53,923 nucleotides of DNA from Thermodesulfovibrio sp. (GCA_027050975.1 JALUAR010000107.1:1-53923), one strand, 5' to 3'; positions 1 to 52,689 are shown, numbered from the stretch's first letter. The notes: a model not told the origin generated them from the letters alone. Numbers and translations: made by a program.

Positions 1-143
1 GTCTCAGACAGATCAAGACCATAATCTCACTTCTTTACGACATTAAGATGGAAAACAGGTTGTATGCTGCAGAGGCACTCGGTGAGATTGCACGGCCTGA
101 GCCCAGACTGATAGAACTATCAAAGGAGGCAGTCTATAAATAA
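1..143 (+). CDS. 3' end of a gene cut by the window edge; the tail resembles a HEAT/PBS-lyase-type repeat (…LYAAEALGEIARPEP…)
   Basis: Frame 3 is open from the window edge to TAA at 141-143. The AAEALGEI motif is typical of HEAT-like repeats. Only 46 codons are visible. Confidence 0.3.
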   Translation, partial: LRQIKTIISLLYDIKMENRLYAAEALGEIARPEPRLIELSKEAVYK

Positions 144-164: not shown

Positions 165-809
165 ATGAACGGACCTGTCCTGAAAGGAAGCTTTCAAATG
201 AAAGAATCTAAGAAAAATCTTGAGTTCTATAAAGAATTAAACATCTCTGAAGAGGATATTTACGAGGCAATGAAGGAGATTTCCGGGTACCTGGATATTA
301 CCCCGGAGGATTTCAAAGAAATCTATAAAAGGGCATTCTATCATGCAATCGAAAGACTTGCCACATCCTTTAAGGCCAAAGATGTAATGACAAAGAGGGT
401 GATTTCTGTTAGAAAAGGGACACCATTACAAGAGGTTGCAAAGGTCATGGCAGACAACAGAATATCAGGGGTCCCTGTAGTGGATGAAGAAAATAATGTA
501 GTCGGGGTCATATCTGAAAAGGACTTTCTAAGAAGAATGGGAGTTGATGACATGGGAACATTCATGGGTGTTGTAGCTGAATGCCTGAAAGGGAAAGGAT
601 GTGTGGCCGTATCTATACGCGCAAAGAAATCTGAGGATATAATGAGTGCTCCCCCAATCACAGTAACTGAAGATACAGCGGTTATTGAAATTGCCAGACT
701 CTTTGGGGAGAGAAATATTAATAGAGTACCTGTTATTGATGAGAAGGGACATCTGATTGGTATTGTCTCCCGTGGTGATATAGTGAGCATACCCCTCTTG
801 AATGTATAG
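165..809 (+). CDS. CBS domain pair protein
   Basis: Two CBS-like repeats (VMTKRVISV…ISGVPVVDEENNVVGVISEKD and IMSAPPITV…INRVPVIDEKGHLIGIVSRGD). An alternative ATG at 198 has a better AGGAAG SD. The gene ends 6 nt before the HPP gene. Confidence 0.8.
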   Translation: MNGPVLKGSFQMKESKKNLEFYKELNISEEDIYEAMKEISGYLDITPEDFKEIYKRAFYHAIERLATSFKAKDVMTKRVISVRKGTPLQEVAKVMADNRISGVPVVDEENNVVGVISEKDFLRRMGVDDMGTFMGVVAECLKGKGCVAVSIRAKKSEDIMSAPPITVTEDTAVIEIARLFGERNINRVPVIDEKGHLIGIVSRGDIVSIPLLNV

Positions 810-815
810 GTTATT

Positions 816-1358
816 ATGCTGAAAGAATATTTTAACAAAATGCGAGGCACAACAAAGAGCCCTCCAAGGGTCAGTATCTCCGAGGTCATATGGTCCTGGA
901 TAGGAGCTTTTTGGGGTATTTCAGCTGTAGCATATATCCATTACAATATCTTGAATGAAACTGATCTCGTGATGATAATAGGCTCATTCGGGGCGTCGGC
1001 TGTTCTGATTTATGGAGCGATCAAGAGCCCTCTTGCACAACCGAGAAATCTAATAGGTGGACATGTATTTTCAGCCGTTATCGGAGTGCTATCCTATCAG
1101 TTGTTAGGTTCAGAGCCATGGGTGGCTGCTGCAGTTGCAGTGGCAACTGCAATTGCTTTTATGCATGTAACAAAAACACTTCATCCCCCGGGTGGCGCAA
1201 CGGCATTAATAGCGGTGATTGGGAGTGAAAAGATTCATAATCTTGGTCTGCTTTATGCCATTATTCCAGCAGGCACAGGGGCTTTGATAATGCTCATCGT
1301 GGCCCTTCTTGTCAACAACATTCCAAAAACCAGAAGATATCCAGAGTTCTGGCTATAG
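816..1358 (+). CDS. HPP family integral membrane protein (family includes a cyanobacterial nitrite transporter)
   Basis: Polytopic hydrophobic protein with the signature LHPPGGATALIAV. Tightly linked to the CBS gene; HPP and CBS domains are often fused in other genomes. Confidence 0.85.
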   Translation: MLKEYFNKMRGTTKSPPRVSISEVIWSWIGAFWGISAVAYIHYNILNETDLVMIIGSFGASAVLIYGAIKSPLAQPRNLIGGHVFSAVIGVLSYQLLGSEPWVAAAVAVATAIAFMHVTKTLHPPGGATALIAVIGSEKIHNLGLLYAIIPAGTGALIMLIVALLVNNIPKTRRYPEFWL

Positions 1359-1360
1359 TC

Positions 1361-2281
1361 TTATTCCCACCTTTTTTCAGGCTGAAGAGCGGTATGCTTT
1401 TTCTGATCCCTTGCAAAATCAAATCTGAATAATCCCCTGCCCTTACCCAGCTCCCTTTCACAAGCGCTTATACATTCACCACAGTTTACGCAGTTAATGT
1501 CTCTCTTTACAGCCCTTGGTTTTACTCCCATGAAGCAGGCCCTTTCGCATTTTCTACAATCTGTGCAACGGGAAAACTCTTCCTTCTTAAACCTTACTTT
1601 TAAAGAAAAGGGGCTTATCCATCCGAAGAGCATCTGCATAAGCCCCGCAGCGCAGACATATTTACAGAAAACGTGCCTTACAAATAAGGACGTGGTTAAC
1701 ATATAAATAGTAACGCCTATGATTGCTGCCTTTACTCCAGTTGAGAGATTGCCTGTAGTGATCTGATGCCAGATGGTGCTGGGTGCAATGAAGTAGCCTG
1801 AGAGCGCAATTGCTACCACTGGTGGTATCACTGCAAAAAAGAGCATTCCAAATATAAGATATATCCACCTCCTGCTTTTATCCACTGAAGGATCATTATC
1901 CGCTTTTGCATACAGACTTCTTCGTCCTAGCACCTTTAATGTAAGGAAGTCCGCAAACTCAAAGAGTGCCCCTTCAGGGCATAGCCATCCACAGAAGAAT
2001 CTGCCGAAGAGAAATCCCATCAGAGGAAAGAAGGCAAGCACCGCAAGCCAGGGAAGTATGGCTTTAAGGAAGAATATAGCTGCGACATCTGTGGCAGTCT
2101 TAAGTGACTGCTCCATCACGATCTCCCTCGTTATCCCCAATGTCCATACTTTGCCAAAGAGAAAGAGTTCTTTAGTTGCGGAATCATAACGAAAGATATC
2201 AAATGCAGGCGCCAGCAGTATAAAGAGGGTGAAAGCGATCTGAGTCAATCTTCTCAAAATATGACGGTTTATTATGCTCAT
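1361..2281 (-). CDS. NapH/MauN/CcoG-type membrane-bound 4Fe-4S polyferredoxin
   Basis: Multiple TM helices, the FCGWLCPEGALFE motif, and two ferredoxin-type Cys clusters (CTDCRKCERAC and CVNCGECISAC). Confidence 0.75.
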   Translation of the reverse strand: MSIINRHILRRLTQIAFTLFILLAPAFDIFRYDSATKELFLFGKVWTLGITREIVMEQSLKTATDVAAIFFLKAILPWLAVLAFFPLMGFLFGRFFCGWLCPEGALFEFADFLTLKVLGRRSLYAKADNDPSVDKSRRWIYLIFGMLFFAVIPPVVAIALSGYFIAPSTIWHQITTGNLSTGVKAAIIGVTIYMLTTSLFVRHVFCKYVCAAGLMQMLFGWISPFSLKVRFKKEEFSRCTDCRKCERACFMGVKPRAVKRDINCVNCGECISACERELGKGRGLFRFDFARDQKKHTALQPEKRWE

Positions 2282-2320
2282 CCTATTTTTAGGTATATCA
2301 TATGCCGGTGTTGATACGAA

Positions 2321-2334
2321 ATGATTTAAATCAT
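2321..2334. promoter_or_regulatory. Perfect 14-bp palindrome ATGATTTAAATCAT (CRP/FNR-like half-sites TGAT-N4-ATCA) in the divergent NapH-like/FKBP promoter gap
   Basis: Read directly from the sequence. An identical 16-mer (ATGATTTAAATCATAA) recurs at 5288-5303 and a variant at 9086-9099, each time in a promoter gap of the cytochrome island. Confidence 0.4.
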
Positions 2335-2467
2335 AATGACAATTTTTTCTTGCTTTTTACGTACCGAGGGGTTAAAATAAATTAAATAGACTGGAGCCGC
2401 GTCAAGGAGTCTCCCTGCCTCCAAATCGGTCTTTCCAGCCAAAAAAAATCTTTGGGAGGAAAGTATT

Positions 2468-3010
2468 ATGAAGCTTGTCAGAATCAGTAGGGTGTTGGGC
2501 ATTTTAATCGTTTTAATGGCCCTCACTTTGTCAACGGATCTGTATGCAAAGTCAAAGGAAAAGAAGGGTAACCTCGTTGTCTCTACGGGGAAAGAGGTCT
2601 CTATCGAATACACGGTAAAGCTTGAAGACGGTACAACCGTGGATACCAGCGTAGGGAAAAAACCTCTCACATATATCCATGGCCATAAACAGCTTATTCC
2701 AGGGCTTGAGAAGGCACTGGAAGGTATGAAGGTTGGTGAAACAAAACATATTGTGGTGCCTCCCGAGGAGGGATACGGTCTAAGAGACAGTAAGGCCATA
2801 GTTGAGGTAACAAAAGATAAGGTGCCAAAGAATGCTCTCAAGGTTGGTACCCTGCTACAGGCACAGAACCCACATGGAGGGATTGTTTATGCAAGGGTTA
2901 CCCAGATTAAGGACAAAACAGTAGTGCTGGATTTAAATCATCCGCTTGCAGGGAAAACGCTATATTTTGATGTTAAAATTCTTGATGTGAAAGAGGTGCC
3001 CATAAAATAA
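2468..3010 (+). CDS. FKBP-type peptidyl-prolyl cis-trans isomerase with N-terminal signal peptide (exported)
   Basis: GGGAGGA SD. Signal-like N-terminus (ILIVLMALTLSTDLYA). FKBP motifs (VSIEYTVKLEDGTTVD, LIPGLEKALEGMKVGE, LNHPLAGKTLYFDVKILDV). Confidence 0.85.
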   Translation: MKLVRISRVLGILIVLMALTLSTDLYAKSKEKKGNLVVSTGKEVSIEYTVKLEDGTTVDTSVGKKPLTYIHGHKQLIPGLEKALEGMKVGETKHIVVPPEEGYGLRDSKAIVEVTKDKVPKNALKVGTLLQAQNPHGGIVYARVTQIKDKTVVLDLNHPLAGKTLYFDVKILDVKEVPIK

Positions 3011-3041
3011 TTCGGTTTAAAAACGTTTGTTTCTTGAAATG

Positions 3042-3071
3042 AAAAAAGGGAGGCATACAGCCTCCCTTTTT
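3042..3071. terminator. Bidirectional rho-independent terminator between the FKBP gene and norB
   Basis: AAAAAA-GGGAGGC-ATACA-GCCTCCC-TTTTT. A 7-bp GC-rich stem flanked by an A-tract and a T-tract. Confidence 0.7.
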
Positions 3072-3092
3072 GTTGTTTTGCAGTACACAGGC

Positions 3093-4481
3093 TCAGGCTA
3101 CTGTTTCGGTAGCAGTAGATGTCACCTCCACAGGCTCTTTACCAAGCTTGAAGAAGTCAATTACAAAGAGCCATGCACCGTAGAGGAATCCAACTCCAAA
3201 GATAGCCCTCAGTGCCCAGAACCAGAAGTTGTATGTTGCCTTTACTGTTACGTAGTCAAGACCGATAAGCCTCTCCATATAGGTCTGTACCATGCCAGCA
3301 CCTGTTAGAGTGAGTACAATAAATATCATTGATATTGTCATCCACCAGAAGGATCTGTATCCTCTCGATGTGTTGAACTCATTAACACCTCTTATTAATG
3401 GCAGTGTTATATAAATCATGGACATCACCAGAAGGACATAGGCACCGTAGAATGCCAGATGTCCGTGTGCAGTGGTTATCTGGGTGCCATGTGTCCATTT
3501 GTTAACCTGTGGAAGGGTATGGATAACACCCCATAATCCTGCTCCCACGAAGTTGAAAATAGCATGGCTTGTTGCATAAAACAGACCCAGCCTGTTTGTG
3601 ACAACACGATGTTTCCTTGTAGTTCTGAAGGCATCCCAGACCATTAGCAGGAGTGGAATAGGCTCAAGGGAGCTGAAAATGCCGCCAACCCACAGCCAGT
3701 ACTTTGGAGTGCCTATCCAGTAGTAATGATGTCCTGTGCCTAAAATTCCAGTAAACAGTACAAGCCCAACCTCTATATACATCCATCTTTCAAGTACATG
3801 ACGTTCTGCATTTGTAACCTTCATGAGCATAAATGCCAAGAGTGCGCCTGCAATCACCTCCCAGGCACCCTCGACCCACAGATGAATTACCCACCACCAC
3901 CAGAACTGGTCCTTAACCATACTCTTTGTATAGAACATCCCAGGCAGATACATAAGGGCAAGAAAGGTGAGTCCTCCGAGCAATGTACCCTGGATGCCTG
4001 TCCAGCGCTTACTTTTGTACATTGTCATAAAGTTATTAATCAGAAATAGGATCACTGAGAGGGCAATCAGCCAATCTGCCCAGCGTGGTGCCTCGATATA
4101 CTCTCTGCCCTCATTTAAAAGCAGTGTGCCTGCAACGAATTTGTTTGCCTGAGGATCAAATCCCATCCAGATGTAACCCAATACAACTGCTGTAACAGCT
4201 ACAACTGTGGCCCAGAACTGGAACTTCGCCAGGGGAATACTCCAGAGTTCACTCTGAGACTCTTCAGGTACAACATAATAGGTAGCTCCCATAAGTCCCA
4301 TCAGAAGCCATACAACAAGGGCATTTATATGCAGATCTCGTATTATGTTGAACTTCAGAGGGAAAAAGTCAGGCCATATGAATTGAAGTGCTGCGATAAT
4401 GCCCACAAGGACCTGTACAAGAAAGAGTAGCACCGCAAAGGTATAAAAGTTTTGTGCTATCTTTTGACTCTCGTATTTCAT
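3093..4481 (-). CDS. norB: Nitric oxide reductase large subunit NorB (cNOR-type haem-copper superfamily member)
   Basis: 462 aa, 12-TM-like. Carries the NOR-specific VIHLWVEGAWE (His plus Glu at the FeB site), the GTGHHYYWIG His pair, and HGHLAFYG haem ligands. GGGAGG SD. Confidence 0.9.
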   Translation of the reverse strand: MKYESQKIAQNFYTFAVLLFLVQVLVGIIAALQFIWPDFFPLKFNIIRDLHINALVVWLLMGLMGATYYVVPEESQSELWSIPLAKFQFWATVVAVTAVVLGYIWMGFDPQANKFVAGTLLLNEGREYIEAPRWADWLIALSVILFLINNFMTMYKSKRWTGIQGTLLGGLTFLALMYLPGMFYTKSMVKDQFWWWWVIHLWVEGAWEVIAGALLAFMLMKVTNAERHVLERWMYIEVGLVLFTGILGTGHHYYWIGTPKYWLWVGGIFSSLEPIPLLLMVWDAFRTTRKHRVVTNRLGLFYATSHAIFNFVGAGLWGVIHTLPQVNKWTHGTQITTAHGHLAFYGAYVLLVMSMIYITLPLIRGVNEFNTSRGYRSFWWMTISMIFIVLTLTGAGMVQTYMERLIGLDYVTVKATYNFWFWALRAIFGVGFLYGAWLFVIDFFKLGKEPVEVTSTATETVA

Positions 4482-4511
4482 AGTTATACTACCTCCCTAA
4501 GTGTATTTTAA

Positions 4512-5177
4512 TTATTTTAGTGTCAGCAGATAGTCCACTAACTGGTTGAGTTCCTCATCACTTATCTGCGGATAGGCTGGCATTGCTGAATCAGGAACAA
4601 GAGCCGACGGTTCTCTGAGATGACGTTTGTGCCATTCCGGGTCAGGTCTTCTGGATGCTACTTTTGTGAGATCCGGTCCAGAAGTGCCTCCAACACCGCT
4701 GATCATATGGCAAGATGAACATCCATACTTTTGATAGACTGTAACGCCAGGGGTCTGGGGCATTCTGAAGGTAGCAAGCACCGGCTTTGGCGGCCAGCCG
4801 TTGGTGTCAACCTTTGAGACCCAGTCAAGGAAGGCTACGAGCTTCTTCGCCTCATCTGGAGTGATGCCAAGTGCAGGCATTGCTGCAGTTGATTTGACCT
4901 TTTTGGGATTGACCAGGAACTTCTCAAGATAGCCTTCAGGTTTGTTTACTGTGACTTTTGTGAGATCAGGAGCAAAGTAAGAGCCGTTTCCAAGAATAGT
5001 GTGGCAACCGATACAGTCGTACTTGTGCCATAGTTTCTTGCCCTCGTCTACCTCCGCTGTTATCTCTGGTGCCCGCTTGTCCAGTCTCTTCATGGTGTCA
5101 AAAGTAAGAGCCACGAAGATGACGAAGAAGAAGAGGCTACCAAAGACAAAGAGGTTCCTCACACCTCGGTTACTCAT
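4512..5177 (-). CDS. norC: NorC-like membrane-anchored cytochrome c with an extra C-terminal class-I cytochrome c domain (two CXXCH)
   Basis: N-terminal TM anchor. NorC-like [24 protein letters not shown], plus a second domain [23 protein letters not shown]…AMPAY. GGGAGGTG SD. Lies 30 nt upstream of norB. Confidence 0.75.
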
Positions 5178-5287
5178 TAGAGCACCTCCCTTTGTCTGTT
5201 TATTTAGTACGTTTTCCAGCCAATGGCTGGTTGCAGATCATGCTCAAAGTCCTTACTTAAAAATATCATTTATCAATATCTTTTTCT

Positions 5288-5301
5288 ATGATTTAAATCA
5301 T
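5288..5301. promoter_or_regulatory. Second copy of the palindrome ATGATTTAAATCAT, in the divergent norC / MCP control region
   Basis: Identical to 2321-2334. It lies 111 nt upstream of the norC ATG and 76 nt upstream of the MCP ATG. A second inverted repeat CCAGCC-AAT-GGCTGG sits at 5216-5230. Confidence 0.4.
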
Positions 5302-5376
5302 AAGGGGCAGGCTGTTAAAGTTTTAGAAGCAACTGTCCGATACTATGTATTAAAAATACTCCTGGGAGGTAGTTTT

Positions 5377-7194
5377 ATGTTCCAATGGTTTTACAATCTT
5401 TCACTTAAAAGGAAATTCTATCTGATCTTCGGGGGAATCATCATTGCGACGATTATCGCTGTTATTACAGGACAGGTGGCGTTTGACAGGATCAAGGTGG
5501 GCGGAAGATTCTACAGAGGTATCGCACTGAAGAGGGACGCCATTGATGAGCTTGCACGGATTAGGATGAATGTGAATCTTATAAGAGGTCTTTTTTATTC
5601 CCAGCTTTACAGTTATGACGATACCGTCACTGAAAACATTCGTTCCATAATGGACAAAACCGACTCCCTTTATGAACGTCTTGAACAAAAGGCCGTGAAA
5701 CCTTCTGATAGTAATAATCTGTACTGCGGATCATGTCATGGTATGGACAGAGTCGAAGCTATATTTGCATCAATCAAGAAATCAAGGAGTTCATGGATTG
5801 ATTATAAAAAGCTGCTGATGGAAAGGGTTCTACCGGCAGTAGCAAAGGGACAGCTTGAAGCGAAAGAACAGATTGATGATATCCACTTGCTTATCTCAGG
5901 TGAATTAGAAGAGAACTTTTACAATATCATGGAACAGACATCTATGCCATTGAAGACTCTCAGAGATGTTTATCCACTCCTAGTAAATAAACTAAAAGAA
6001 GAATCGGAACTGTTAAAGAAAGGTTATCTTGTCGGAGGGAGCCTTACAGTAATATGCTTGATAGTTATTGCCCTTGTTTTGTCTAAGGTAATAATAAAGC
6101 CTGTTTCAGGTGTTTCACATGCATCACTTATGATGGCAGAGGGTAGGTTTGGGGATGTATCAGTGGATGTAAGAGGCAAGGACGAACTGGGACATATGGC
6201 TGAGGCATTCAGGCTAATGGGAAAAAAGTTGAAAGAGGTTGTAAGCAATATAAAGGAAGGTATATTGAACTTATCTTCCTCAGCAGAAGAGTTGTCTGCA
6301 ACAGCAGATTCACTAACTGTTACAACGGATGCACAATTAAGACAGGTGGAGCAGGTGGTAGCAGCAGCATCCGAGATGTCCCAGACCATTATGGATGTGG
6401 CTAAGAATGCATCCGAGGCTGCAGAGGCATCACAGGAGTCCACTGATATGGCCACAGGAGGAATGGAAGTGGCAGAGGAGGCTATGAAAGAGATAAACAG
6501 GATAGCAGATGTGGTTAACAGCGCCTCGGAAATCATAGAGACCCTTGGCAACAGTTCAAAAGAGATCGGAGAGATTTTGTCGGTTATCACAGATATTGCA
6601 GAGCAGACCAATCTGCTTGCCCTGAATGCAGCTATTGAGGCAGCACGGGCAGGAGAGCATGGACAGGGGTTTGCTGTTGTGGCAGATGAGGTGAGAAAGC
6701 TGGCAGAGAAGACTGCAAGATCAACGGAGGAGATTGCCGAAAAGATAAAGACTATTCAGAGAAAGGCAGAGCAGTCTGTTGACACCATGAGACAGAGCAG
6801 AGAGGAGGTTGAAAAGGGCATAAAATTCATGGAGATGGTAACCCAATCACTGGAATCAATTGTTACCGCATCTACAAGGGCAAACGAGATGGTTCAGCAT
6901 ATTGCAGCTGCTACAGAAGAACAGTCCACTGCCTCAGAGGAGATAGCCCAGAATATGAATGAGATATCCAGAGGTATAGAAGAGACTGTGAGTGCGTCCA
7001 AGCAGCTGAGAGAGGTCTCTCTTGAGCTCGCCTCCCTTTCAGAAAGGCTTAAAAGCCAGATCGATTGGTTCAGGATTGAAGAGACAGAAAGGAGCGAAAG
7101 AGAGTCATTTCATCAAAAAGGTGAAGCAAACTACGATACAGAAAATATCTTTACTCACTCCTATGATATTAAGATTTCAGGAAATGGAAGTTAA
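5377..7194 (+). CDS. Methyl-accepting chemotaxis protein with a helical periplasmic sensor domain carrying one CXXCH motif
   Basis: Start chosen at ATG 5377 (GGGAGG SD at 5364-5369, then TM helix [17 protein letters not shown]). The track ORF from 4999 overlaps norC antisense. Second TM, HAMP, and the conserved signalling hairpin [43 protein letters not shown] at 5725-5739. Confidence 0.9.
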
Positions 7195-7197
7195 ATA

Positions 7198-7230
7198 CAG
7201 GGAGGGGGCATGTTTCATGCCCCCTCCCTG
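7198..7230. terminator. Strong bidirectional hairpin terminator between the MCP gene and the octahaem cytochrome gene
   Basis: Perfect 15-bp inverted repeat CAGGGAGGGGGCATG-TTT-CATGCCCCCTCCCTG between convergent genes. Confidence 0.75.
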
Positions 7231-7243
7231 TATTGTGTAGAGT

Positions 7244-8482
7244 TTATTTTTCTGCTAACTTGAACTCCTTGCGAAGTTTCTCAGCCTCATCTTTGATCTT
7301 CTGTAGCGTCTCCTTCATTGGAGCCCAACCATACCAATGCATATAGTCAGCGTTCATGTGGAATGCTCCCTGGAAGGTACGCATTCTGTACTCAAGGAAC
7401 ATTACGTAAAGATCCTGTTCAATAGAGCTTTTTGCTTCGTAAAACTGCAAGAGATCAGGAGCCACTTTCCAATTGGCAGGCTTCTTGAGTATTCCATCTT
7501 TGTAGAGACCTTTGACTATTCTGATGGCCTCTGCCATCAACTTATCTGCTTCACGGATGATCTTGTCTCCTGCGTCCAGCTGTGCCTTTGCATATGAGGT
7601 GCTGTGGCACTTGGAGCAGATATTGATCATTTTTGTACGTTCCCTGTCGAACTCCTCTTTAGTGAGTCTGGCCACCTTACCAGCCTTCACCACCTCAAGC
7701 CTCTCCGTGGGATTTCCTGCATCATCGAGCACTCCAAGGGCCTGAAGTATTGTGACCCTGTCTTTCAGCCACTCCTGGTCATCTTCAGGTAGCCTGACAG
7801 CAAGGAAGCCCCACGAGGTCATTACATTGTGGTCACCGTCGGGCATGTGGCAGGTCTGGCATACAGGGGCTCTGTCACTGCCTTTGCCTTCAATCTGCCA
7901 GATAGTACCATGCTTTGAGGTGGACCACATCTCCCACTGGGGATGGTCGAATCCCATATGGCATGACTGACAGGCCCTTGGGTCACGTGCTTCCTCTTTT
8001 GAGAAGGTGTGCCTTGTATGACATGAATCGCAGGCACCACTACCATAGCGGTAGGCTCTGGCTTCTTCCTCAGACTTCAGACCGATTTTATGACAGCCTG
8101 AACAGCCCTTGTACCCTTCACCAACTATCATTGTTGGCTGATGCTGGAGCATTGGCATAGCCTTCATTGCAATCCAGCCAAGTGAGTGTTTTCCTGCCTT
8201 GTACTGCTCAACCTGCTTCGGATGACAACTGTTGCATGTCTCCGGAGTTGGCAGCTTGGCAAGTGATGCATCCTCAGCACCCTTGTTGTGCTCTGAACCA
8301 TGGCAGGTAGAACAGTCAAGCCCTATCTTGCCCATCTTACCAGAAAGGAACTGTTTGACTATTCCAGGTGTCTCCTTCTCATGACAGGAGATACACTGAC
8401 TCTTAGCCTCTACGTTGGTTCCGAACATCAAGAAAGCAGCACTTAACAGCAGTAACAGAAAAAGATACCTCCTCATTAGCAC
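7244..8482 (-). CDS. Exported octahaem c-type cytochrome, hydroxylamine-oxidoreductase (HAO / epsilon-Hao)-like
   Basis: Signal peptide and eight CXXCH motifs (CISCH, CSTCH, CNSCH, CSGCH, CDSCH, CQSCH, CQTCH, CSKCH). HAO/NrfA-like CQSCHMGFDHPQWEMWSTSKHG and a C-terminal helical region GAFHMNADYMHWYGW. The haem count is certain; the family call is from memory. Confidence 0.8.
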   Translation of the reverse strand: MLMRRYLFLLLLLSAAFLMFGTNVEAKSQCISCHEKETPGIVKQFLSGKMGKIGLDCSTCHGSEHNKGAEDASLAKLPTPETCNSCHPKQVEQYKAGKHSLGWIAMKAMPMLQHQPTMIVGEGYKGCSGCHKIGLKSEEEARAYRYGSGACDSCHTRHTFSKEEARDPRACQSCHMGFDHPQWEMWSTSKHGTIWQIEGKGSDRAPVCQTCHMPDGDHNVMTSWGFLAVRLPEDDQEWLKDRVTILQALGVLDDAGNPTERLEVVKAGKVARLTKEEFDRERTKMINICSKCHSTSYAKAQLDAGDKIIREADKLMAEAIRIVKGLYKDGILKKPANWKVAPDLLQFYEAKSSIEQDLYVMFLEYRMRTFQGAFHMNADYMHWYGWAPMKETLQKIKDEAEKLRKEFKLAEK

Positions 8483-8523
8483 ACCTCCTTTGAGATTTGA
8501 ATTTCTGGGAAAGAGTACAGAAA

Positions 8524-9045
8524 CTAGTTTGAACTGTGCTCAGAAATGTCTTGAAACCCCTTCAGGTAATCACCCCCTTCTGCCCCAATATTTACCTCCC
8601 CTGAAAAATCCGGCACATCCTTAATTATTCTCTTTATGTACATCCTCTCTGAGCGGTCCATCTCATTTAGTCTTCTCAGAGAGAAAAACAGGGTAATGGC
8701 AAGCCCCAGAAAGCCTGCTATCACCTCTGCCCCTTTCAATCCCATATACACAGCTAATACATATCCTGCTATGGTGCTGACAACTAGCATGCTTAAAGGA
8801 AGAATAAAGGCAAGAAAATAACCCTTTATATGTGTCTCCCTCTTCAGTCCAATAGTTACCACATCTCCGACCCTCGCATTTACGGAGTTTTCTACTTCAA
8901 GAAGCATGCCAGCTCCCCCGGGCCTGCAGAGTCCCAGTTTAGCCATGCCACAGCCCTTGCAGGAGGTCCCTTTTCCAAGGCGAACTCTTGCAATTCCGCC
9001 CTCGGTATGAATAACCGTACCCGTCTCTACAATGTTTGTCTTCAT
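8524..9045 (-). CDS. RseC/MucC-family (SoxR-reducing-system-type) membrane protein
   Basis: N-terminal GTVIHTEGGIARVRLGKGTSCKGCGMAKLGLC followed by two TM helices, the typical RseC architecture. Lies 41 nt upstream of the octahaem gene on the same strand. Confidence 0.7.
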   Translation of the reverse strand: MKTNIVETGTVIHTEGGIARVRLGKGTSCKGCGMAKLGLCRPGGAGMLLEVENSVNARVGDVVTIGLKRETHIKGYFLAFILPLSMLVVSTIAGYVLAVYMGLKGAEVIAGFLGLAITLFFSLRRLNEMDRSERMYIKRIIKDVPDFSGEVNIGAEGGDYLKGFQDISEHSSN

Positions 9046-9085
9046 AGCCTGTCAAAATACTAACAGGTAAGGGATTAATGATGTT

Positions 9086-9099
9086 ATGATTTATGTCAT
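9086..9099. promoter_or_regulatory. Variant of the palindromic box (ATGATTTATGTCAT) upstream of the rseC-like/octahaem operon
   Basis: Matches ATGATTTAAATCAT at 12 of 14 positions. Located 41-54 nt upstream of the rseC-like ATG. Confidence 0.3.
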
Positions 9100-9170
9100 A
9101 CTCCTGACACTGCTTTGAAAAGATGAGATTTGACAGGAGAGTGCCTGTTTAAATATAATTTCAGAAGAGT

Positions 9171-9245
9171 GGGCGATTAGCTCAGTGGGAGAGCGCTGCC
9201 TTCACACGGCAGAGGTCGGTGGTTCGAAACCACCATCGCCTACCA
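9171..9245 (+). tRNA. tRNA-Val (anticodon CAC), CCA encoded
   Basis: Cloverleaf readable by eye. Acceptor GGGCGAT/ATCGCCT, D-arm AGCTCAGTGGGAGAGC, anticodon stem CTGCC/GGCAG with loop TTCACAC, T-arm GGTGGTTCGAAACCACC, 3' ACCA. Confidence 0.9.
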
Positions 9246-9272: not shown

Positions 9273-9698
9273 CTATTCTTGACTCTCATTATAGCATAAA
9301 AGGGCCTTCCGGCTTTCGATAATCTCATTAAGCAGTGCCACCATCCGTCTGTAAAGTCTTGGAGACCTCTCAGGCATATATGTCAGAAGAGGCTCGCAGA
9401 AGAACCAAGTGCAACGGAAAGGCCTCTGCCATCTTGGCCTGATACATCCCTTACTGCCAAGAAACTCACACGAGCCCTCGGGATCACGTTCATGGGAGCC
9501 GTCAGAGATGCTCTTCTCTCCAAGTGAGACTAAAAAGGCGAGATCCTCGGGTTCATATAGTCCGTGCTTCTGCTTACAGCATACACTCTCACAGTCAGGA
9601 CAGACTGTGGATGTAAACTCCTCTATTATGGGGCTTATCTCATCATAGAGGTTCTTGATATGCTTTGCTAACATTGCCTTCTGGCTGTTTTTACTCAT
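9273..9698 (-). CDS. YkgJ-family (CxxCxxCC) zinc/iron-chelating cysteine-cluster protein
   Basis: CPDCESVCCKQKHG motif plus further conserved Cys residues. Start moved to the internal ATG at 9698 (MSKNSQ…); a TATAAT lies 7 nt upstream on the coding strand, so the mRNA may be leaderless. Confidence 0.6.
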   Translation of the reverse strand: MSKNSQKAMLAKHIKNLYDEISPIIEEFTSTVCPDCESVCCKQKHGLYEPEDLAFLVSLGEKSISDGSHERDPEGSCEFLGSKGCIRPRWQRPFRCTWFFCEPLLTYMPERSPRLYRRMVALLNEIIESRKALLCYNESQE

Positions 9699-9919
9699 AA
9701 TTTTTATTATACAAGTTGACAAGACCGATAAACCAATTTGACCAGGAAGTCGCCTGTTGCGAAATTCCGTAAGGGCTTTACAGGATTGTAGCAACTATGG
9801 TATTCTTTACGATACAGGAAACAGCGGTAGACAACTGTCTACAGGACCGAGGGGGCAGTGAACTGCAGGGAAAGGATGTAGATTTTAAGAAAATAATTAG
9901 ATGAAAGGAGTGATGAATC

Positions 9920-47162: not shown

Positions 47163-47538
47163 TTATCCTGTGCCCCGTAAGCTGCAGTAGCAGCACAACA
47201 AGTATTGCTATTACAAGGAGGGTGACGATTACTCCAAGCCCGCTGTCACCTGCGACCCTTACCTGGTCCACTGACATGGCAAACTGGTGAAGCTCCTCGT
47301 CACTGAGGGAGTTGAGTCTCTGTTTGATCTCTTCGGGCTGATATCCGAGGGCCTTTAATCTGCCCGTTACCACCTCGGATTCTAAAAATCTCTGCAGCTT
47401 CTGCATATCAACCTGACGCTGGGAGATATTAATCAGTTCGGAATCGACCATAGAGGCATCCAGTCCTGAAACAGCTGATATAAATGCCATTGTGAAAACC
47501 AGATAGCAGGCAATCTGTTTGAAAAAGGGAATTCTCAC
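47146..47538 (-). CDS. PA2779-like small protein: signal peptide, helical region, C-terminal TM anchor
   Basis: 130 aa. LQRFLESEVVTGRLKALGYQPEEIKQRLNSLSDEEL, then AGDSGLGVIVTLLVIAILVVLLL. Overlaps gspD by 4 nt and the peptidase gene by 17 nt. Confidence 0.5.
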   Translation of the reverse strand: MRIPFFKQIACYLVFTMAFISAVSGLDASMVDSELINISQRQVDMQKLQRFLESEVVTGRLKALGYQPEEIKQRLNSLSDEELHQFAMSVDQVRVAGDSGLGVIVTLLVIAILVVLLLQLTGHRIIVVDQ

Positions 47539-49469
47539 GGCTCCTTCACCTCCTTTCCTGAATCAAACTTTTGGTTCCTCTGTATCTGTTCCTTAATCAC
47601 CTTTACCCTGTCCTGGAATTGTTTCGTTATCATGTCAGCCTCCTCCTCTCCTGAGATCACATATGGAGTAACCATAAGCAGGAGTTCTGTCTTTGAGTTT
47701 GTATCTGTTGTGGTACTGAATAGACCACCTATGATGGGGATATCACTTAAAATGGGTATCCCCGTTCTGCTTCTGCTCTTTTTGTTTGAGATAAGGCCTC
47801 CTATGATCAGGGTATGCCCTGACTGGACGATCGCCGTTGTCTGAGCCGTACGCTTGATGAACTTGGGGAAATCCTGGCCTGCAACCTTTTCAGAGCCTCC
47901 CGGGCTACTGAACTCCTGTTTTATTTTAAGGGTTACCTTGTTCTTTTCGCTTATGTGGGGAGTTACATTCAGTATTATTCCTGCTGTTCTGTACTGGATC
48001 TGTCCCGTTGAGACAAGTGTTGTTGCACCGGTGCCAGTGGCTGGCTGCTGGGTAAGCCCTGTTGCTATGGGGATATCATCACCTATTTCGATGGATGCCT
48101 CTTTGTTGTCAACAGCCAGTATGTGAGGGCTTGCCAGCACATTAAGATGACCTTTGGATGCAGCAAGTGACAGCAGGGTGGTGAACTTGTTAGGGTCCAA
48201 TATGTTGACGAAGGCACCTGATGATACGATCGGTGAGAAGGTAAACTCCGTTATCTGGCCTGAATCGTTTACACCGCTCAGGTAATTGCCGGGAGAATTT
48301 GTGAATCCACCCACACCTTTTACATTTCCGGAAGAGCCTTTCAAAAGCCACTCGATTCCGTATCTTGTGGTGGAGTCCAGGGTTACCTCTGCTATGAGAA
48401 CCTCAATGAGTACCTGTTTTGGGGGGATGTCAAGTTTTTTGAGTGTCTCAAGAATTGCGAGATAGTCTCCTGGACTGGCTTTGATAATAATTGCATTTAT
48501 ATCGTCATAGGCTGTTATGCTGATCTCTCCTCTGACCTCACCGGGAAGGCCGCCCACAATAGTTGGGGTAGGAGTGACAGGCTGTTTTGTTCTTCTTGTT
48601 GTTGGCAATGGTCTTCGCACCGTAGGTTGTCTCTTCTTTGCCCTGTCTTTGACATAGATGTTTTTAAGAATCTCAGCCAGCTTTTTTGCCTCTCCGTTTT
48701 CAACATAGTAGACGAAGGTCTTTATGTTTTCGCGATCTGAAGGTGGTATGTCAATGGCCTTCAGAATCTTCATAATCTTCACCAGAGCAAGGGGGCGTGC
48801 AGTTATAATGATAAGGTTGGTGGGTTCGTAAACAATGATGTCAGAGCCTCTTGGCATGAGACCTCTAAGGATATTTGCGGCGTCAGATGCCTTAACGTAA
48901 GAGAGAGGGACAATCTGGGTGATAAATGACGAATCTACCACCATCTCAACCTCTTTTCCGCTCTGCACCTCCAGATTCTGCTGCTTTGCCATGTTTATGG
49001 GAACAATCCTGTACAGCGGACCATCCTTTATAGCAGTAAGTCCGTTCAGTTCAAGGATGCTCTGGAATATTCTGAAGAGGTCCTTAAGCGGAAACTTTCG
49101 GTACGTCTGAATTGTTACCTTGCCCGAGATGCCGGGTGAAATGACGTAATTGATTCCCAGGAGTTCGCTTATTGTTGATATTACTGTCTCTATGTCCGCT
49201 CCGTCGAAGTTAAGAACAATGTATCTCTGGTCTGCATCGTTTTCAACGCGGATCGGCTCTTTGGGTTTGGCGAGCGTTTCCACGCGCTTTGGCCTTTCAA
49301 CCACCTCCTTATTAATCTCGGGAAGAACGATTTTTTCCTCCTCCGCCTTTTTTTCAGGAGGAGGCACAGTCTCTAGCTGAGGTCTAACCTCTTTGGTTGA
49401 GGTGCACGATATGAGGAAAAACAGGAAAAGAACAGAAAACAGAGCAGTGATTCTTTTCGGTATCTTCAT
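47535..49469 (-). CDS. gspD: Type II secretion system secretin GspD (lipoprotein-type signal peptide)
   Basis: Lipobox FFLISCTS, N0-N3 domains, and a secretin C-domain (VLASPHILAVDNKEASIEIGDDIP, TGIPILSDIPIIGGLF). Confidence 0.9.
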   Translation of the reverse strand: MKIPKRITALFSVLFLFFLISCTSTKEVRPQLETVPPPEKKAEEEKIVLPEINKEVVERPKRVETLAKPKEPIRVENDADQRYIVLNFDGADIETVISTISELLGINYVISPGISGKVTIQTYRKFPLKDLFRIFQSILELNGLTAIKDGPLYRIVPINMAKQQNLEVQSGKEVEMVVDSSFITQIVPLSYVKASDAANILRGLMPRGSDIIVYEPTNLIIITARPLALVKIMKILKAIDIPPSDRENIKTFVYYVENGEAKKLAEILKNIYVKDRAKKRQPTVRRPLPTTRRTKQPVTPTPTIVGGLPGEVRGEISITAYDDINAIIIKASPGDYLAILETLKKLDIPPKQVLIEVLIAEVTLDSTTRYGIEWLLKGSSGNVKGVGGFTNSPGNYLSGVNDSGQITEFTFSPIVSSGAFVNILDPNKFTTLLSLAASKGHLNVLASPHILAVDNKEASIEIGDDIPIATGLTQQPATGTGATTLVSTGQIQYRTAGIILNVTPHISEKNKVTLKIKQEFSSPGGSEKVAGQDFPKFIKRTAQTTAIVQSGHTLIIGGLISNKKSRSRTGIPILSDIPIIGGLFSTTTDTNSKTELLLMVTPYVISGEEEADMITKQFQDRVKVIKEQIQRNQKFDSGKEVKEP

Positions 49470-49482
49470 GACTTACCTCTTT

Positions 49483-49971
49483 TTATTCTGTATTTTTCAT
49501 GTTTTTTAGAGTTAGGACGAACTCCTCATCTTTCCATCTTATTTTAACTGTCCGATCGTTGATTTCTATAATCTCGGAGTCATCGATTCTTTCACCAACT
49601 CTAAGGCCCACAGGCTTTTCACCCTCTCTTTTAATGTATGCGATATATTCATTGTACTGGTTTAGTACCACTCCGATAAGTTTCAGATTAGGCCTAATCG
49701 GTGAATCCTCTGTCTCTTCCGATGTTTCACTTTCTTGTACTGGAGAAAAACTTCTGTCAGGACTGAAAATGTTCTTTTCAAGTATTTCCATATCCCAGGT
49801 TATCTTATCTGCCGCCGCCTTATCATTTGTACTGATAACTTTCTGTATCTTTTCCTTTGGAGAATTCAGGGGCTTTGTTTCCTGATATTTTATTACATTC
49901 TGATAAAAATTTATAAGAGATAATATGAAAACAACGAATATGCCTACAGATATAACAGCACGGACGATCAT
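49483..49971 (-). CDS. GspC/PilP-like inner-membrane T2SS component
   Basis: N-terminal TM, NIFSPDR motif, acidic linker, and a C-terminal beta (HR-like) domain (LKLIGVVLNQYNEYIAYIKREGE…VGERI). Assignment rests on position and architecture. Confidence 0.5.
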   Translation of the reverse strand: MIVRAVISVGIFVVFILSLINFYQNVIKYQETKPLNSPKEKIQKVISTNDKAAADKITWDMEILEKNIFSPDRSFSPVQESETSEETEDSPIRPNLKLIGVVLNQYNEYIAYIKREGEKPVGLRVGERIDDSEIIEINDRTVKIRWKDEEFVLTLKNMKNTE

Positions 49972-52688: not shown

Positions 52689-52689
52689 A

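What the first reader, a model, noticed from the sequence alone, without database searches (positions are those of the whole stretch)
165..9100. Compact nitrogen-oxide / periplasmic cytochrome island with an unusual gene combination
Nine kb hold the following genes:
- CBS + HPP (the HPP family includes a nitrite transporter).
- A NapH/CcoG-like membrane polyferredoxin.
- An exported FKBP-type PPIase.
- norB plus a dihaem norC.
- A haem-motif MCP.
- An RseC-like protein and an octahaem HAO-like cytochrome.

The window has no nirS/nirK, nrfA (CXXCK), nos or amo genes. One inferred route is nitrite import or export (HPP), an HAO-type enzyme interconverting nitrite, hydroxylamine and NO, and cNOR removing NO. 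Electrons would be fed from the quinol pool through the NapH-like protein.

That would be a denitrification or detoxification route that bypasses canonical nitrite reductases. Reverse-HAO nitrite reduction has been shown in a few Epsilonproteobacteria, but as far as I know it has not been described with this gene complement.
Basis: inference. Interest (0 to 1): 0.62.

Follow-up and report, generated by a model that had tools for sequence, protein, structure and literature searches.

The report
Co-regulated nitrite and nitric-oxide reduction gene cluster
A hydrothermal-vent Nitrospirota bacterium keeps an eight-haem enzyme of the hydroxylamine-oxidoreductase family, a nitric-oxide reductase and their helper genes side by side behind one shared DNA control site; related bacteria show the same pattern, so this is a real but not unprecedented nitrite/NO-handling unit.

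Summary
The octahaem protein belongs to the HAO family: eight invariant CXXCH motifs, a conserved Asp-His pair, and only HAO-family matches in the PDB. At the position of the cross-linking Tyr it has Trp, like the nitrite-reducing Kuenenia HAOr.

The main new result is a 16-bp palindrome, tATGATttaaATCATa (FNR-like spacing). It lies in three island promoter regions: norC/MCP, NapH-like/FKBP and upstream of RseC-octahaem. A matrix trained only on norC upstream regions of 16 other genomes scores these three sites 20-28 bits; the next window hit scores 9.5. In relatives the site precedes homologues of norC, the octahaem gene, the NapH-like gene and CBS-HPP. The genes therefore probably form one regulon.

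The combination is not unique. The two loci with the closest NorB carry nap-hao-norCB-NapH-like, and others carry norC-norB-octahaem or CBS-HPP-norCB-NapH-like. The NapH-like gene travels with cNOR and lies between norQ and norD in one betaproteobacterium, so an accessory role fits better than quinol-electron entry. The "bypass of canonical nitrite reductases" is not shown: 54 kb is not a genome, and NrfA-family genes adjoin the octahaem gene in some relatives. I rate it a new variant of a known kind, of moderate interest.

The parts
165..809 (+). CBS-pair protein, 6 bp upstream of HPP; probably a regulatory partner of the HPP channel
   Evidence: PF00571 twice, E = 3e-35. CBS+HPP pairs recur next to norCB in L085, L098, L101 and L106, and near the octahaem gene in L009 and L013.
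816..1358 (+). HPP-family membrane protein, a candidate nitrite channel
   Evidence: PF04982 full length, E = 2e-62. Family members transport nitrite (Maeda 2014, cited in PMC7438415). Homologues lie near norCB in seven loci.
1361..2281 (-). NapH/CcoG-like membrane polyferredoxin with two CX3CP motifs and two 4Fe-4S motifs; probably a cNOR accessory factor
   Evidence: Fer4_5 and Fer4_18. NapH 69.6 bits against a cut-off of 213; CcoG 69.1 against 317. Found near norB, mostly just downstream, in 13 of 25 Nitrospirota-clade loci and in 32 of 80 NorB loci overall. Lies between norQ and norD in L149.
2321..2334 (.). Operator copy 1 (ATGATTTAAATCAT), centred 46 nt upstream of the NapH-like start and 140 nt upstream of the FKBP start
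   Evidence: Exact 14-mer. Scores 22.9 bits with a matrix trained on other genomes. The same site lies 47-79 nt before NapH-like homologues in L006, L081, L086, L087 and L095.
2468..3010 (+). SlyD-like FKBP peptidyl-prolyl isomerase with a signal-peptide-like N-terminus; a local passenger, not a conserved member
   Evidence: PF00254 and PRK10737. No homologue in any of the 160 related loci L001-L160.
3043..3071 (.). Terminator-like hairpin between the convergent FKBP and norB genes
   Evidence: 12-bp stem flanked by A and T runs.
3093..4481 (-). norB, catalytic subunit of a cytochrome-c-dependent NO reductase (cNOR)
   Evidence: E = 3e-112 to 3o0r_B. The His ligands and the cNOR glutamates (HLWVEGAWE, GHHYYW, SLEP, AHGH, GREYIE) are conserved in the printed alignment.
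4512..5177 (-). norC with a fused second cytochrome c domain (dihaem NorC)
   Evidence: Residues 6-131 match NorC 3o0r_C, E = 2e-27. Residues 140-221 match class-I cytochrome c, FixO and the caa3 subunit II cytochrome domain. The full-length form is present in 45 of 78 NorC homologues beside NorB.
5288..5301 (.). Operator copy 2 (ATGATTTAAATCAT), centred 117 nt upstream of norC and 83 nt upstream of the MCP
   Evidence: Exact 14-mer. At 27.8 bits it is the best hit in the window. A site lies 66-130 nt before norC in most of the Nitrospirota-clade loci.
5377..7194 (+). Methyl-accepting chemotaxis protein whose ~190-aa periplasmic domain carries one CXXCH; possibly a haem-based redox or NO sensor
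   Evidence: HAMP and MCPsignal domains. Start checked. The sensor domain has no Pfam or PDB match. Not conserved beside nor in relatives.
7244..8482 (-). Periplasmic octahaem cytochrome c of the HAO family, without the cross-link Tyr (reductive type)
   Evidence: Eight invariant CXXCH motifs and an invariant CHMGFDHPQWEMW. PF13447. PDB hits are 6h5l, 4n4j, 6t5e, 1fgj, 4qo5 and 6hif only. Trp383 sits where the oxidative HAOs have Tyr.
8524..9045 (-). RseC/MucC-family small membrane protein with an N-terminal Cys motif, 41 bp upstream of the octahaem gene on the same strand
   Evidence: PF04246, E = 4e-20. The RseC-octahaem pair is conserved in L001, L022, L161 and L162.
9086..9099 (.). Operator copy 3 (ATGATTTATGTCAT), centred 47 nt upstream of the RseC start
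   Evidence: Two mismatches to the 14-mer; 19.8 bits. The site is in the same place before RseC in L001, L022, L161 and L162, and before the octahaem gene in at least 12 other Nitrospirota loci.
9171..9245 (+). tRNA-Val(CAC), the right-hand boundary of the cluster
   Evidence: ARAGORN and Rfam. No repeat of its 3' end elsewhere in the window.

Best explanation
The region is a compact copy of a nitrite/NO-responsive regulon of Thermodesulfovibrionia-type Nitrospirota.

A transcription factor, most likely of the CRP/FNR family and not encoded in the window, binds the palindrome tATGATttaaATCATa. It controls three transcription units here: RseC-octahaem, norC-norB and the NapH-like gene. The divergent MCP and FKBP genes may also be controlled.

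The proposed roles are as follows.
- The octahaem protein is a periplasmic HAO-family reductase without the cross-link Tyr. It reduces nitrite, and also NO and hydroxylamine.
- NO that it releases, or that comes from outside, is reduced to N2O by a cNOR whose NorC carries its own fused donor cytochrome c.
- The NapH/CcoG-like polyferredoxin serves the cNOR, in maturation or upkeep. It is not a quinol dehydrogenase for the octahaem enzyme.
- CBS-HPP moves nitrite across the membrane.

Shown here: the gene identities, the shared conserved operator, and the recurrent linkage in other genomes. Inferred: the regulator family, the substrates and products, and the role of the NapH-like protein. Whether the main end product is N2O or ammonium, and whether the unit conserves energy or detoxifies, is open.
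For: Gene identities.

Operator:
- Two exact 14-mers and one copy with two mismatches lie in the three promoter regions of the island. A fourth two-mismatch copy lies inside the FKBP gene at 2928. All four matches fall inside the island, against 0.43 expected in the whole window.
- A matrix trained only on norC upstream regions of 16 other genomes scores the three promoter sites 27.8, 22.9 and 19.8 bits. The next window hit scores 9.5, and 20 shuffles gave a mean maximum of 9.8 and a top of 17.6.
- In 2.39 Mb of related loci plus the window there are 61 sites of at least 16 bits, and none in one shuffle of the loci. The automatic count puts 47 of them within 350 nt upstream of homologues of norC, the octahaem gene, RseC, the NapH-like gene or CBS/HPP. 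About seven more belong there but were missed because of ORF calling.
- The sites before the octahaem gene and RseC were not in the training set.
- CRP/FNR genes adjoin the octahaem gene (L004, L019) and the nor genes (L087). The TGAT-N4-ATCA core matches the FNR/DNR spacing, not the NsrR spacing (PMC1274295).

Linkage in other genomes:
- L081 and L082 (NorB 94% and 91% identical) carry a 502-aa HAO-family gene directly upstream of norC and norB. Pfam on L081 shows napA, napG, napH, this gene, norC, norB and the NapH-like gene in a row.
- norC-norB-octahaem in a row in L007, L010, L110 and L113.
- CBS-HPP-norC-norB-NapH-like on one strand in L098.

Octahaem enzyme: the best PDB match is the nitrite-reducing HAOr Kustc0458 (PMC8042395). 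Both have Trp at +8 from the conserved His, where the oxidative enzymes have Tyr.

Expression: in a sediment metatranscriptome, contigs mostly 95-99% identical to L010 (a few 90-95%) cover norC, norB and the octahaem gene, and almost nothing downstream. norBC are among the most transcribed genes of the related Ca. Nitrobium versatile (PMC8906906).
Against: - There is no expression or biochemical data for this organism; only DNA runs hold the window.
- In most of the 80 octahaem loci the gene stands alone, with no nor gene within 10 kb. The linkage is therefore facultative.
- The CBS-HPP pair of this window has no operator in the 164 bp visible upstream and may belong to an operon that starts outside the window.
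- The regulator is not identified.
- The operator lies so close to the RseC and NapH-like start codons (centres about 47 nt away) that activation and repression cannot be told apart.
- Two invariant tyrosines (Tyr380, Tyr384) flank the Trp, so absence of a cross-link rests on gap placement in a loop.
- The AlphaFold model was poor (pLDDT 61).
Confidence: 0.55

Rival explanations
1. HPP imports nitrite. The octahaem enzyme is the sole, NO-forming dissimilatory nitrite reductase and replaces NirS/NirK. cNOR completes a respiratory nitrite-to-N2O pathway, and the NapH-like protein is the quinol dehydrogenase that feeds electrons.
For: The best PDB match, HAOr, forms NO from nitrite (PMC8042395). 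L081, whose NorB is 94% identical, carries nap-hao-nor with no nirS or nirK in 13 kb. None of the families recurring in 25 Nitrospirota-clade nor loci looked like nirS or nirK; only some cluster representatives were Pfam-scanned. norC-norB-octahaem rows occur in four loci.
Against: The window is a small part of a genome, so the absence of nir or nrf genes is not informative. NrfA-family genes lie directly beside the octahaem gene in L004 and L022. The NapH-like protein lacks a NapG partner, is far below the NapH cut-off and tracks norB and norQ/norD rather than the octahaem gene. Nitrite reduction by a periplasmic enzyme needs no import. The epsilonproteobacterial Hao enzymes reduce nitrite and hydroxylamine in vitro (PMC8042395), and nitrite reduction by the tested HAOr gave about 0.6 ammonium per nitrite with methyl viologen as donor.
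Confidence: 0.2
2. A defence or NO-respiration unit for NO made by other organisms. cNOR is the core enzyme. The octahaem enzyme works in parallel and scavenges NO, hydroxylamine and nitrite to ammonium, producing no NO. HPP exports nitrite, and the haem MCP steers the cell along NO or redox gradients.
For: The octahaem family is very large and mostly stands alone in strict anaerobes of many phyla: more than 7000 clusters and at least 553 matching stretches in the genome collection. HAOr reduces NO and NH2OH faster than nitrite (PMC8042395). Other genes behind the operator are typical of nitrosative-stress regulons: a c552-family gene, DUF1858 and an NrfH-like gene (PMC1274295). Ca. Nitrobium versatile is inferred to live on NO made by others.
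Against: The nap-hao-nor and norC-norB-octahaem rows suggest an internal flux from nitrate or nitrite. cNOR is generally held to be typical of denitrifiers (as stated in PMC8756737).
Confidence: 0.25
3. An oxidative HAO. One of the invariant tyrosines (Tyr384 or Tyr380) forms a haem cross-link, and the enzyme oxidises hydroxylamine to NO, which cNOR then removes.
For: Tyr380 and Tyr384 are invariant in 67 family members and lie within 1-3 residues of the position aligned to NeHAO Tyr467.
Against: At +8 from the conserved His, NeHAO has its cross-link Tyr467, and 6t5e has a Tyr that I take, by numbering offset only, to be its cross-link residue. The family has an invariant Trp there, as the cross-link-free HAOr does. 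The alignment to HAOr is ungapped. No amo or other hydroxylamine source is in the window, and the hosts are anaerobes.
Confidence: 0.05
4. Chance neighbourhood: unrelated periplasmic redox genes that happen to lie together.
For: The neighbourhood of the octahaem gene is not conserved in most genomes. The FKBP and the MCP are not found beside the homologous genes in the related loci.
Against: A shared operator with phylogenetic footprints across dozens of genomes. Recurrent rows of the same gene families in several lineages.
Confidence: 0.05

Closest known systems
Kuenenia stuttgartiensis HAOr (Kustc0458/0457; PDB 6h5l)
   Same: HAO-family octahaem fold and the best PDB match by sequence and by Foldseek. 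The Asp-His pair is conserved. Trp stands in place of the cross-link Tyr, and the C-terminal alignment is ungapped. HAOr reduces nitrite to NO, and NO and NH2OH to ammonium (PMC8042395).
   Different: Only about 23% identity. This protein is about 100 residues shorter (412 aa). No dihaem partner gene like Kustc0457 is present; the partner gene here is RseC-like. It is not in an anammox organism. Two invariant Tyr flank the Trp.
Epsilonproteobacterial Hao / reverse-HURM pathway, and the nap-hao clusters of Deferribacter
   Same: Tyr-less HAO proteins proposed or shown to reduce nitrite in organisms without NrfA. A nap-hao row, as in L081 and L082 (PMC3701875, PMC6896113).
   Different: Those pathways end in ammonium, with Hcp as partner. 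Here the partner is a cNOR, and no hcp or nap gene is in the window. In L081 and L082 a different HAO paralogue (502 aa, 28% identical) occupies the nap-hao-nor position.
cNOR of Pseudomonas aeruginosa (NorBC; PDB 3o0r)
   Same: NorB aligns end to end with all metal ligands and the cNOR glutamates. The NorC core, with its membrane anchor, CXXCH and Met ligand, is conserved.
   Different: NorC carries an extra C-terminal cytochrome c domain, a fused electron donor comparable to caa3 oxidase subunit II. No norQ, norD or norE gene is present; a NapH/CcoG-like gene is there instead.
CcoG (cupric reductase for cbb3 oxidase assembly) and NapH
   Same: Same core: membrane helices with two CX3CP motifs plus two cytoplasmic 4Fe-4S motifs (Fer4_5 and Fer4_18). 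Like CcoG, it is encoded beside a haem-copper-superfamily enzyme.
   Different: Scores far below both family cut-offs. It lacks the C-terminal domain of CcoG (306 aa) and the NapG partner of NapH. Its function has not been tested.
CRP/FNR-family N-oxide regulons (DNR, NnrR, HcpR; Rodionov et al. 2005, PMC1274295)
   Same: A palindrome with TGAT-N4-ATCA spacing before nor, nitrite-reductase and cytochrome genes. CRP/FNR genes lie next to target genes in some genomes.
   Different: The half-site is ATGAT rather than TTGAT or TTGAC. I found no description of this regulon for Nitrospirota. The regulon includes an HAO-family gene, a NapH-like gene and CBS-HPP.

Membership tests
HAO family (octahaem hydroxylamine-oxidoreductase-like cytochromes) | Eight CXXCH haem c motifs in the family's order | tested here: met
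   Eight CXXCH at C30, C57, C83, C127, C151, C171, C208 and C289, invariant in 33 and in 67 homologues. No CXXCK.
HAO family (octahaem hydroxylamine-oxidoreductase-like cytochromes) | Sequence and fold similarity to HAO-family structures rather than Otr, MccA, NrfA or ONR | tested here: met
   PF13447, E = 6e-29. PDB hits at E = 1e-19 to 7e-27 are HAO, HDH, HAO-like and IhOCC only. Foldseek's only significant hits are 6h5l, 4n4n and 4qo5, although the model is poor.
HAO family (octahaem hydroxylamine-oxidoreductase-like cytochromes) | Catalytic Asp-His pair following a haem motif (CHxGxDH) | tested here: met
   CQSCHMGFDHPQW aligns with HMGPDH and HMGIDH of 6h5l, 4n4j and 6t5e. It is invariant in the family.
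Oxidative HAO subgroup (P460 enzymes) | Tyr that cross-links to the catalytic haem of the neighbouring subunit (NeHAO Tyr467) | tested here: not met
   phmmer places Tyr467 opposite His382. Counting +8 from the conserved His (Tyr in NeHAO and in 6t5e) gives an invariant Trp383, as in the cross-link-free Kustc0458. Caveat: Tyr380 and Tyr384 are invariant and the segment is a loop.
Oxidative HAO subgroup (P460 enzymes) | Trimeric assembly and a P460 spectrum | not testable with these tools
   This needs purified protein.
cNOR (cytochrome-c-dependent NO reductase) | NorB with His ligands for haem b, haem b3 and FeB, and the conserved glutamates | tested here: met
   The end-to-end alignment to 3o0r_B (E = 3e-112) shows HLWVEGAWE, GHHYYW, SSLEP, AHGHLAFYG and GREYIE conserved.
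cNOR (cytochrome-c-dependent NO reductase) | Membrane-anchored NorC with one haem c, encoded upstream of norB | tested here: met
   Residues 6-131 match 3o0r_C, E = 2e-27. The gene ends 30 bp before norB. A second haem domain is added.
cNOR (cytochrome-c-dependent NO reductase) | NorQ/NorD maturation genes nearby (usual in Proteobacteria, not defining) | tested here: not met
   No AAA_5/CbbQ_C or VWA gene is in the window. None appears among the families recurring in the 25 Nitrospirota-clade loci.
NapH (quinol dehydrogenase of NapGH) | Score above the NapH family cut-off and an adjacent napG | tested here: not met
   TIGR02163 69.6 bits against 213. PRK09477 63 bits against 234. No NapG-like gene in the window.
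CcoG | Score above the CcoG cut-off, including its C-terminal domain | tested here: not met
   TIGR02745 69.1 bits against 316.7. Only profile positions 53-190 of 435 are matched in the best stretch.
HPP family (nitrite transport shown for cyanobacterial and plastid members) | Full-length TM_HPP domain | tested here: met
   PF04982, positions 1-157 of 157, E = 2e-62. The transported substrate was not tested.
CRP/FNR-type operator | Inverted repeat with TGAT-N4-ATCA spacing upstream of target genes, and a cognate CRP/FNR gene | tested here: inconclusive
   The spacing and core match. CRP/FNR genes lie next to targets in L004, L019 and L087, but none is in the window. Binding was not tested.

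The most novel reading that the evidence does not exclude
The ~410-aa Tyr-less HAO clade has more than 7000 sequence clusters and is present in several hundred species genomes of many phyla (at least 553 matching stretches). It could be a third kind of dissimilatory NO-forming nitrite reductase: the missing Nir of anaerobes that carry a cNOR but no NirS or NirK. It would work together with a fused-donor cNOR under one NO/nitrite-responsive CRP/FNR-type regulator, and these organisms would then be unrecognised sources of N2O.
Probability: 0.22. Interest if true: 0.75.

Novelty: new variant of a known kind. Interest (0 to 1): 0.5.

Why it matters
Tyr-less HAO genes are among the most abundant nitrogen-cycle genes in anoxic habitats (PMC8940962). 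Only a few have been characterised biochemically: four epsilonproteobacterial enzymes and one anammox enzyme (PMC8042395). The shared operator gives this very widespread 410-aa clade a concrete, testable context: it is co-regulated with a nitric-oxide reductase. If the enzyme makes NO from nitrite, many genomes scored as "nor only" would in fact encode nitrite-to-N2O reduction, which would change gene-based N2O budgets. Two by-products are also testable: a cNOR form with a fused donor cytochrome, found in 45 of 78 homologues examined, and a NapH/CcoG-like gene that follows cNOR from Nitrospirota to Betaproteobacteria and may be an unrecognised maturation factor.

Tried and rejected
- Looking up the source contig by exact protein (octahaem, NorB) found nothing on record.
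- RNA evidence for the window itself does not exist. Only one hydrothermal-vent DNA run holds it. Three hot-spring metatranscriptomes gave no reads on L010.
- The AlphaFold2 model of the octahaem protein is poor (pLDDT 61; the haem core is below 50). It could not settle the geometry at the Tyr position, and only the ranking of Foldseek hits was used.
- The idea of a mobile island inserted at tRNA-Val was rejected. There is no repeat of the tRNA 3' end, no integrase, and no shift in GC content.
- The NsrR (Rrf2) motif was considered for the palindrome and rejected because the spacing differs.
- A conserved partner gene for the octahaem enzyme across all phyla was sought and not found. No neighbouring family occurs in more than 7 of 80 loci.
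- The periplasmic domain of the MCP has no PDB or Pfam match.
- Literature searches for a dihaem NorC and for a NapH/CcoG-like gene in nor operons found only a passing remark on Nitrospirae NorC-like cytochrome fusions (PMC8756737).
- The paper on the Kustc0458 structure is not in the library, so the residue structurally equivalent to Tyr467 could not be looked up.

Full report
**Observation.**
- CBS pair, 165-809 +.
- HPP, 816-1358 +.
- NapH/CcoG-like membrane polyferredoxin, 1361-2281 -.
- SlyD-like FKBP with a signal-peptide-like N-terminus, 2468-3010 +.
- norB, 3093-4481 -.
- norC with two haem motifs, 4512-5177 -.
- MCP with one CXXCH in its periplasmic part. The real start is 5377; the end is 7194 +.
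- Octahaem cytochrome, 7244-8482 -.
- RseC-like gene, 8524-9045 -.

tRNA-Val at 9171-9245 closes the region on the right. On the left an ORF runs off the window and ends at 141. The rest of the window holds housekeeping, sensor-kinase and secretion/pilus genes, with no nirS, nirK, nrfA, nos or amo. The source is a hydrothermal-vent metagenome. The closest relatives of the proteins are Nitrospirota / Thermodesulfovibrionales MAGs.

**The octahaem protein.**
- It has eight CXXCH motifs, all invariant in its family, and matches PF13447.
- In the PDB it hits only HAO-family chains at E = 1e-19 to 7e-27. These are Kustc0458 (6h5l), Kustc1061 (4n4j), the Brocadia HAO-like protein (6t5e), Nitrosomonas HAO (1fgj, 4fas), IhOCC (4qo5) and HDH (6hif). 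There is no Otr, MccA, NrfA or ONR hit.
- The Asp-His pair in CHMGFDHPQW is invariant.
- For the cross-link Tyr, phmmer puts Nitrosomonas Tyr467 opposite His382. Counting from the conserved His, NeHAO has Tyr at +8, and so does 6t5e. I take the 6t5e Tyr to be its cross-link residue from a numbering offset only; I did not verify it. This family and the cross-link-free HAOr both have Trp at +8.
- By alignment, then, this is a reductive-type HAO. The caveat is that Tyr380 and Tyr384 are invariant and the segment is a loop.
- The family is very large: 7191 clusters at E <= 1e-5 and at least 553 matching stretches in the genome collection. It is 58-87% identical across Nitrospirota, Geobacterales, WOR-3, Burkholderiales, Chloroflexota and some archaea.
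- It has no universally conserved neighbour.

**The NO reductase.**
- NorB aligns end to end with P. aeruginosa NorB, with all ligands and the cNOR glutamates conserved.
- NorC residues 6-131 are a normal NorC. Residues ~140-221 are an added class-I cytochrome c domain.
- The full-length dihaem form is present in 45 of 78 NorC homologues next to NorB. That includes every Nitrospirota-clade locus where norC was detected and a Deltaproteobacteria/Deferrimicrobia group.
- It looks like a fused electron donor, as in caa3 oxidases. The literature I could search mentions it only in passing (PMC8756737).

**The NapH-like gene.**
- It scores 69 bits on both the NapH and CcoG models, far below their cut-offs, and has no NapG partner.
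- It lies near norB, mostly just downstream, in 13 of 25 Nitrospirota-clade loci. A homologue is present in 32 of 80 NorB loci overall.
- In Noviherbaspirillum denitrificans a 33% identical homologue lies between norQ and norD.
- I therefore read it as a cNOR accessory factor, by analogy with CcoG and cbb3 oxidase. This is an inference. I do not read it as the quinol dehydrogenase that feeds the octahaem enzyme.

**The shared operator.**
- The 14-mer ATGATTTAAATCAT occurs exactly at 2321-2334, between the divergent NapH-like and FKBP genes, and at 5288-5301, between the divergent norC and MCP genes.
- A copy with two mismatches lies at 9086-9099, centred 47 nt before RseC-octahaem. A fourth copy with two mismatches lies inside the FKBP gene at 2928. 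Against these four matches, 0.43 are expected in the whole window.
- A position matrix built only from norC upstream regions of 16 other genomes has the consensus tATGATttaaATCATa. It scores the three promoter sites 27.8, 22.9 and 19.8 bits. The next window hit scores 9.5, and 20 shuffles gave at most 17.6.
- Over 2.39 Mb of fetched loci plus the window there are 61 sites of at least 16 bits, and none in one shuffle of the loci.
- The automatic count puts 47 of them within 350 nt upstream of homologues of norC (19 loci), the octahaem gene (12 loci), RseC-octahaem (5, counting the window), the NapH-like gene (7, counting the window) or CBS/HPP. About seven more belong to these classes but were missed because of ORF calling.
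- Other targets are a c552/NrfA-family gene and DUF1858 in L004, and an NrfH-like gene in L013.
- The TGAT-N4-ATCA core and spacing match the FNR/DNR type and not the NsrR motif (PMC1274295).
- CRP/FNR genes adjoin targets in L004, L019 and L087, but none is in the window.
The CBS-HPP pair of this window shows no site in its 164 visible upstream bases and may belong to an operon that starts outside the window. In L013, L085 and L098 the pair does carry the site.

**How unusual is the combination?** It is not unique.
- L081 and L082 (NorB 94% and 91% identical) carry a 502-aa HAO-family paralogue directly upstream of norC and norB. Pfam on L081 shows a sensor kinase, a response regulator, napA, napG, napH, this paralogue, norC, norB and the NapH-like gene in a row, with an RseC-like gene at the locus edge.
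- L007, L010, L110 and L113 carry norC-norB-octahaem in a row.
- L098 carries CBS-HPP-norC-norB-NapH-like on one strand.
- L161 (octahaem 85% identical) keeps only the RseC-octahaem pair, among housekeeping genes.
- The window is therefore a compact assembly of modules that are scattered or differently combined in relatives.
- The FKBP has no homologue in any of the 160 related loci L001-L160, and no close MCP homologue lies beside the homologous genes in them.
- Nothing indicates a mobile island.

**Expression.** No RNA data exist for this organism. In a sediment metatranscriptome, contigs mostly 95-99% identical to L010 (a few 90-95%) cover norC, norB and the octahaem gene at word depths of 28-144, with almost nothing downstream. 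This is weak evidence: it comes from a different organism, and contig depth is a poor measure. Published metatranscriptomes place norBC among the most transcribed genes of the related Ca. Nitrobium versatile (PMC8906906).

**Mechanism.**
- I commit to a nitrite/NO-responsive regulon for periplasmic N-oxide reduction.
- The Tyr-less HAO-type enzyme reduces nitrite, NO and hydroxylamine.
- NO that is released, or that comes from outside, is reduced to N2O by the fused-donor cNOR.
- The NapH-like protein serves the cNOR, and CBS-HPP moves nitrite across the membrane.
- Confidence is 0.55.
- For NO: the closest solved relative, HAOr, forms NO (PMC8042395), and the nap-hao-nor rows fit that.
- For ammonium or scavenging: NrfA-family genes sit next to the octahaem gene in L004 and L022, and the gene stands alone in many strict anaerobes.

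**Comparison with what is known, and verdict.**
- Tyr-less HAO reductases are established (epsilonproteobacterial Hao, HAOr). Hao-based nitrite reduction has been proposed well beyond the Epsilonproteobacteria (PMC3701875, PMC6896113, PMC8940962).
- CRP/FNR-type N-oxide regulons are classic (PMC1274295).
- New here, as far as my searches went:
  - the specific operator that ties this widespread 410-aa HAO clade to cNOR in Nitrospirota;
  - the breadth of the dihaem NorC form;
  - the linkage of cNOR with a NapH/CcoG-like gene.
- I rate the finding a new variant of a known kind, with interest 0.5.

Noticed in passing
window 4512-5177; L081-L129: NorC with a fused C-terminal cytochrome c domain is the rule in the Nitrospirota clade and in a Deltaproteobacteria/Deferrimicrobia clade (45 of 78 NorC homologues examined). 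Proteobacterial NorC matches only residues 6-131.
   Followed up: partly
L149 12300-16385; also L128, L130, L133, L136, L138, L140-L144, L150, L153, L156, L158-L160: In Noviherbaspirillum denitrificans a NapH/CcoG-like membrane polyferredoxin lies between norQ and norD. The other listed proteobacterial nor loci carry a ~30% identical homologue 1 to 5.4 kb (mostly 2.6 to 3.6 kb) downstream of the norB start. I found no description of this in the searched literature.
   Followed up: partly
window 8367-8381 (octahaem residues 375-389, FHMNADYMHWYGWAPM): Tyr380, Trp383 and Tyr384 are invariant in 67 family members, in the loop that carries the cross-link Tyr in oxidative HAOs. The role of the two tyrosines is unexplained.
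   Followed up: partly
L086 6015-6935; also L089, L090, L101, L102, L107, and a matching family (representative L006 9402-10403) in six octahaem loci: A ~306-aa protein with an N-terminal CXXCH, a CopD-like membrane part and a cytochrome b5-like domain recurs near norCB and near the octahaem gene. A 104-aa cupin also recurs near norCB (six loci).
   Followed up: partly
L004 5740-11221: The row is: CRP/FNR regulator, a 137-aa COX1-fragment-like membrane protein, a 156-aa ORF, DUF1858, a 543-aa c552/NrfA-family cytochrome, and the octahaem gene. Four operator sites lie in this stretch, which makes it a fuller version of the regulon.
   Followed up: partly
L081 350-9084 and L082: A sensor kinase with a Tll0287-like (haem-binding PAS-like) domain and a response regulator precede napA-napG-napH and a 502-aa HAO paralogue directly upstream of norC.
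   Followed up: partly
window 5377-5990: The ~190-aa periplasmic domain of the MCP is predicted helical, carries a single CGSCH, and has no Pfam or PDB match. It could be an undescribed haem c sensor domain.
   Followed up: partly
window 1-141: An ORF runs off the left edge (…AAEALGEIARPEPRLIELSKEAVYK*, HEAT-repeat-like) and ends 23 bp before the CBS gene. CBS-HPP may therefore be the tail of a longer operon.
   Followed up: no
window 9273-9794 (-): A 173-aa Cys-rich ORF just beyond tRNA-Val has no Pfam or NCBIfam match.
   Followed up: no
window 9130-9159: A perfect sigma-70 consensus (TTGACA-18-TATAAT) lies directly upstream of tRNA-Val.
   Followed up: no
window 2928-2941: A fourth, two-mismatch copy of the 14-mer lies inside the FKBP coding region. 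It is probably chance, since it is not among the 15 best hits of the extended matrix (all above 1.7 bits).
   Followed up: partly
window 47535-53904: A type II secretion / type IV pilus gene row (secretin, PilO, PilN, T2SS-K-like, T2SSE ATPase). It is ordinary.
   Followed up: no
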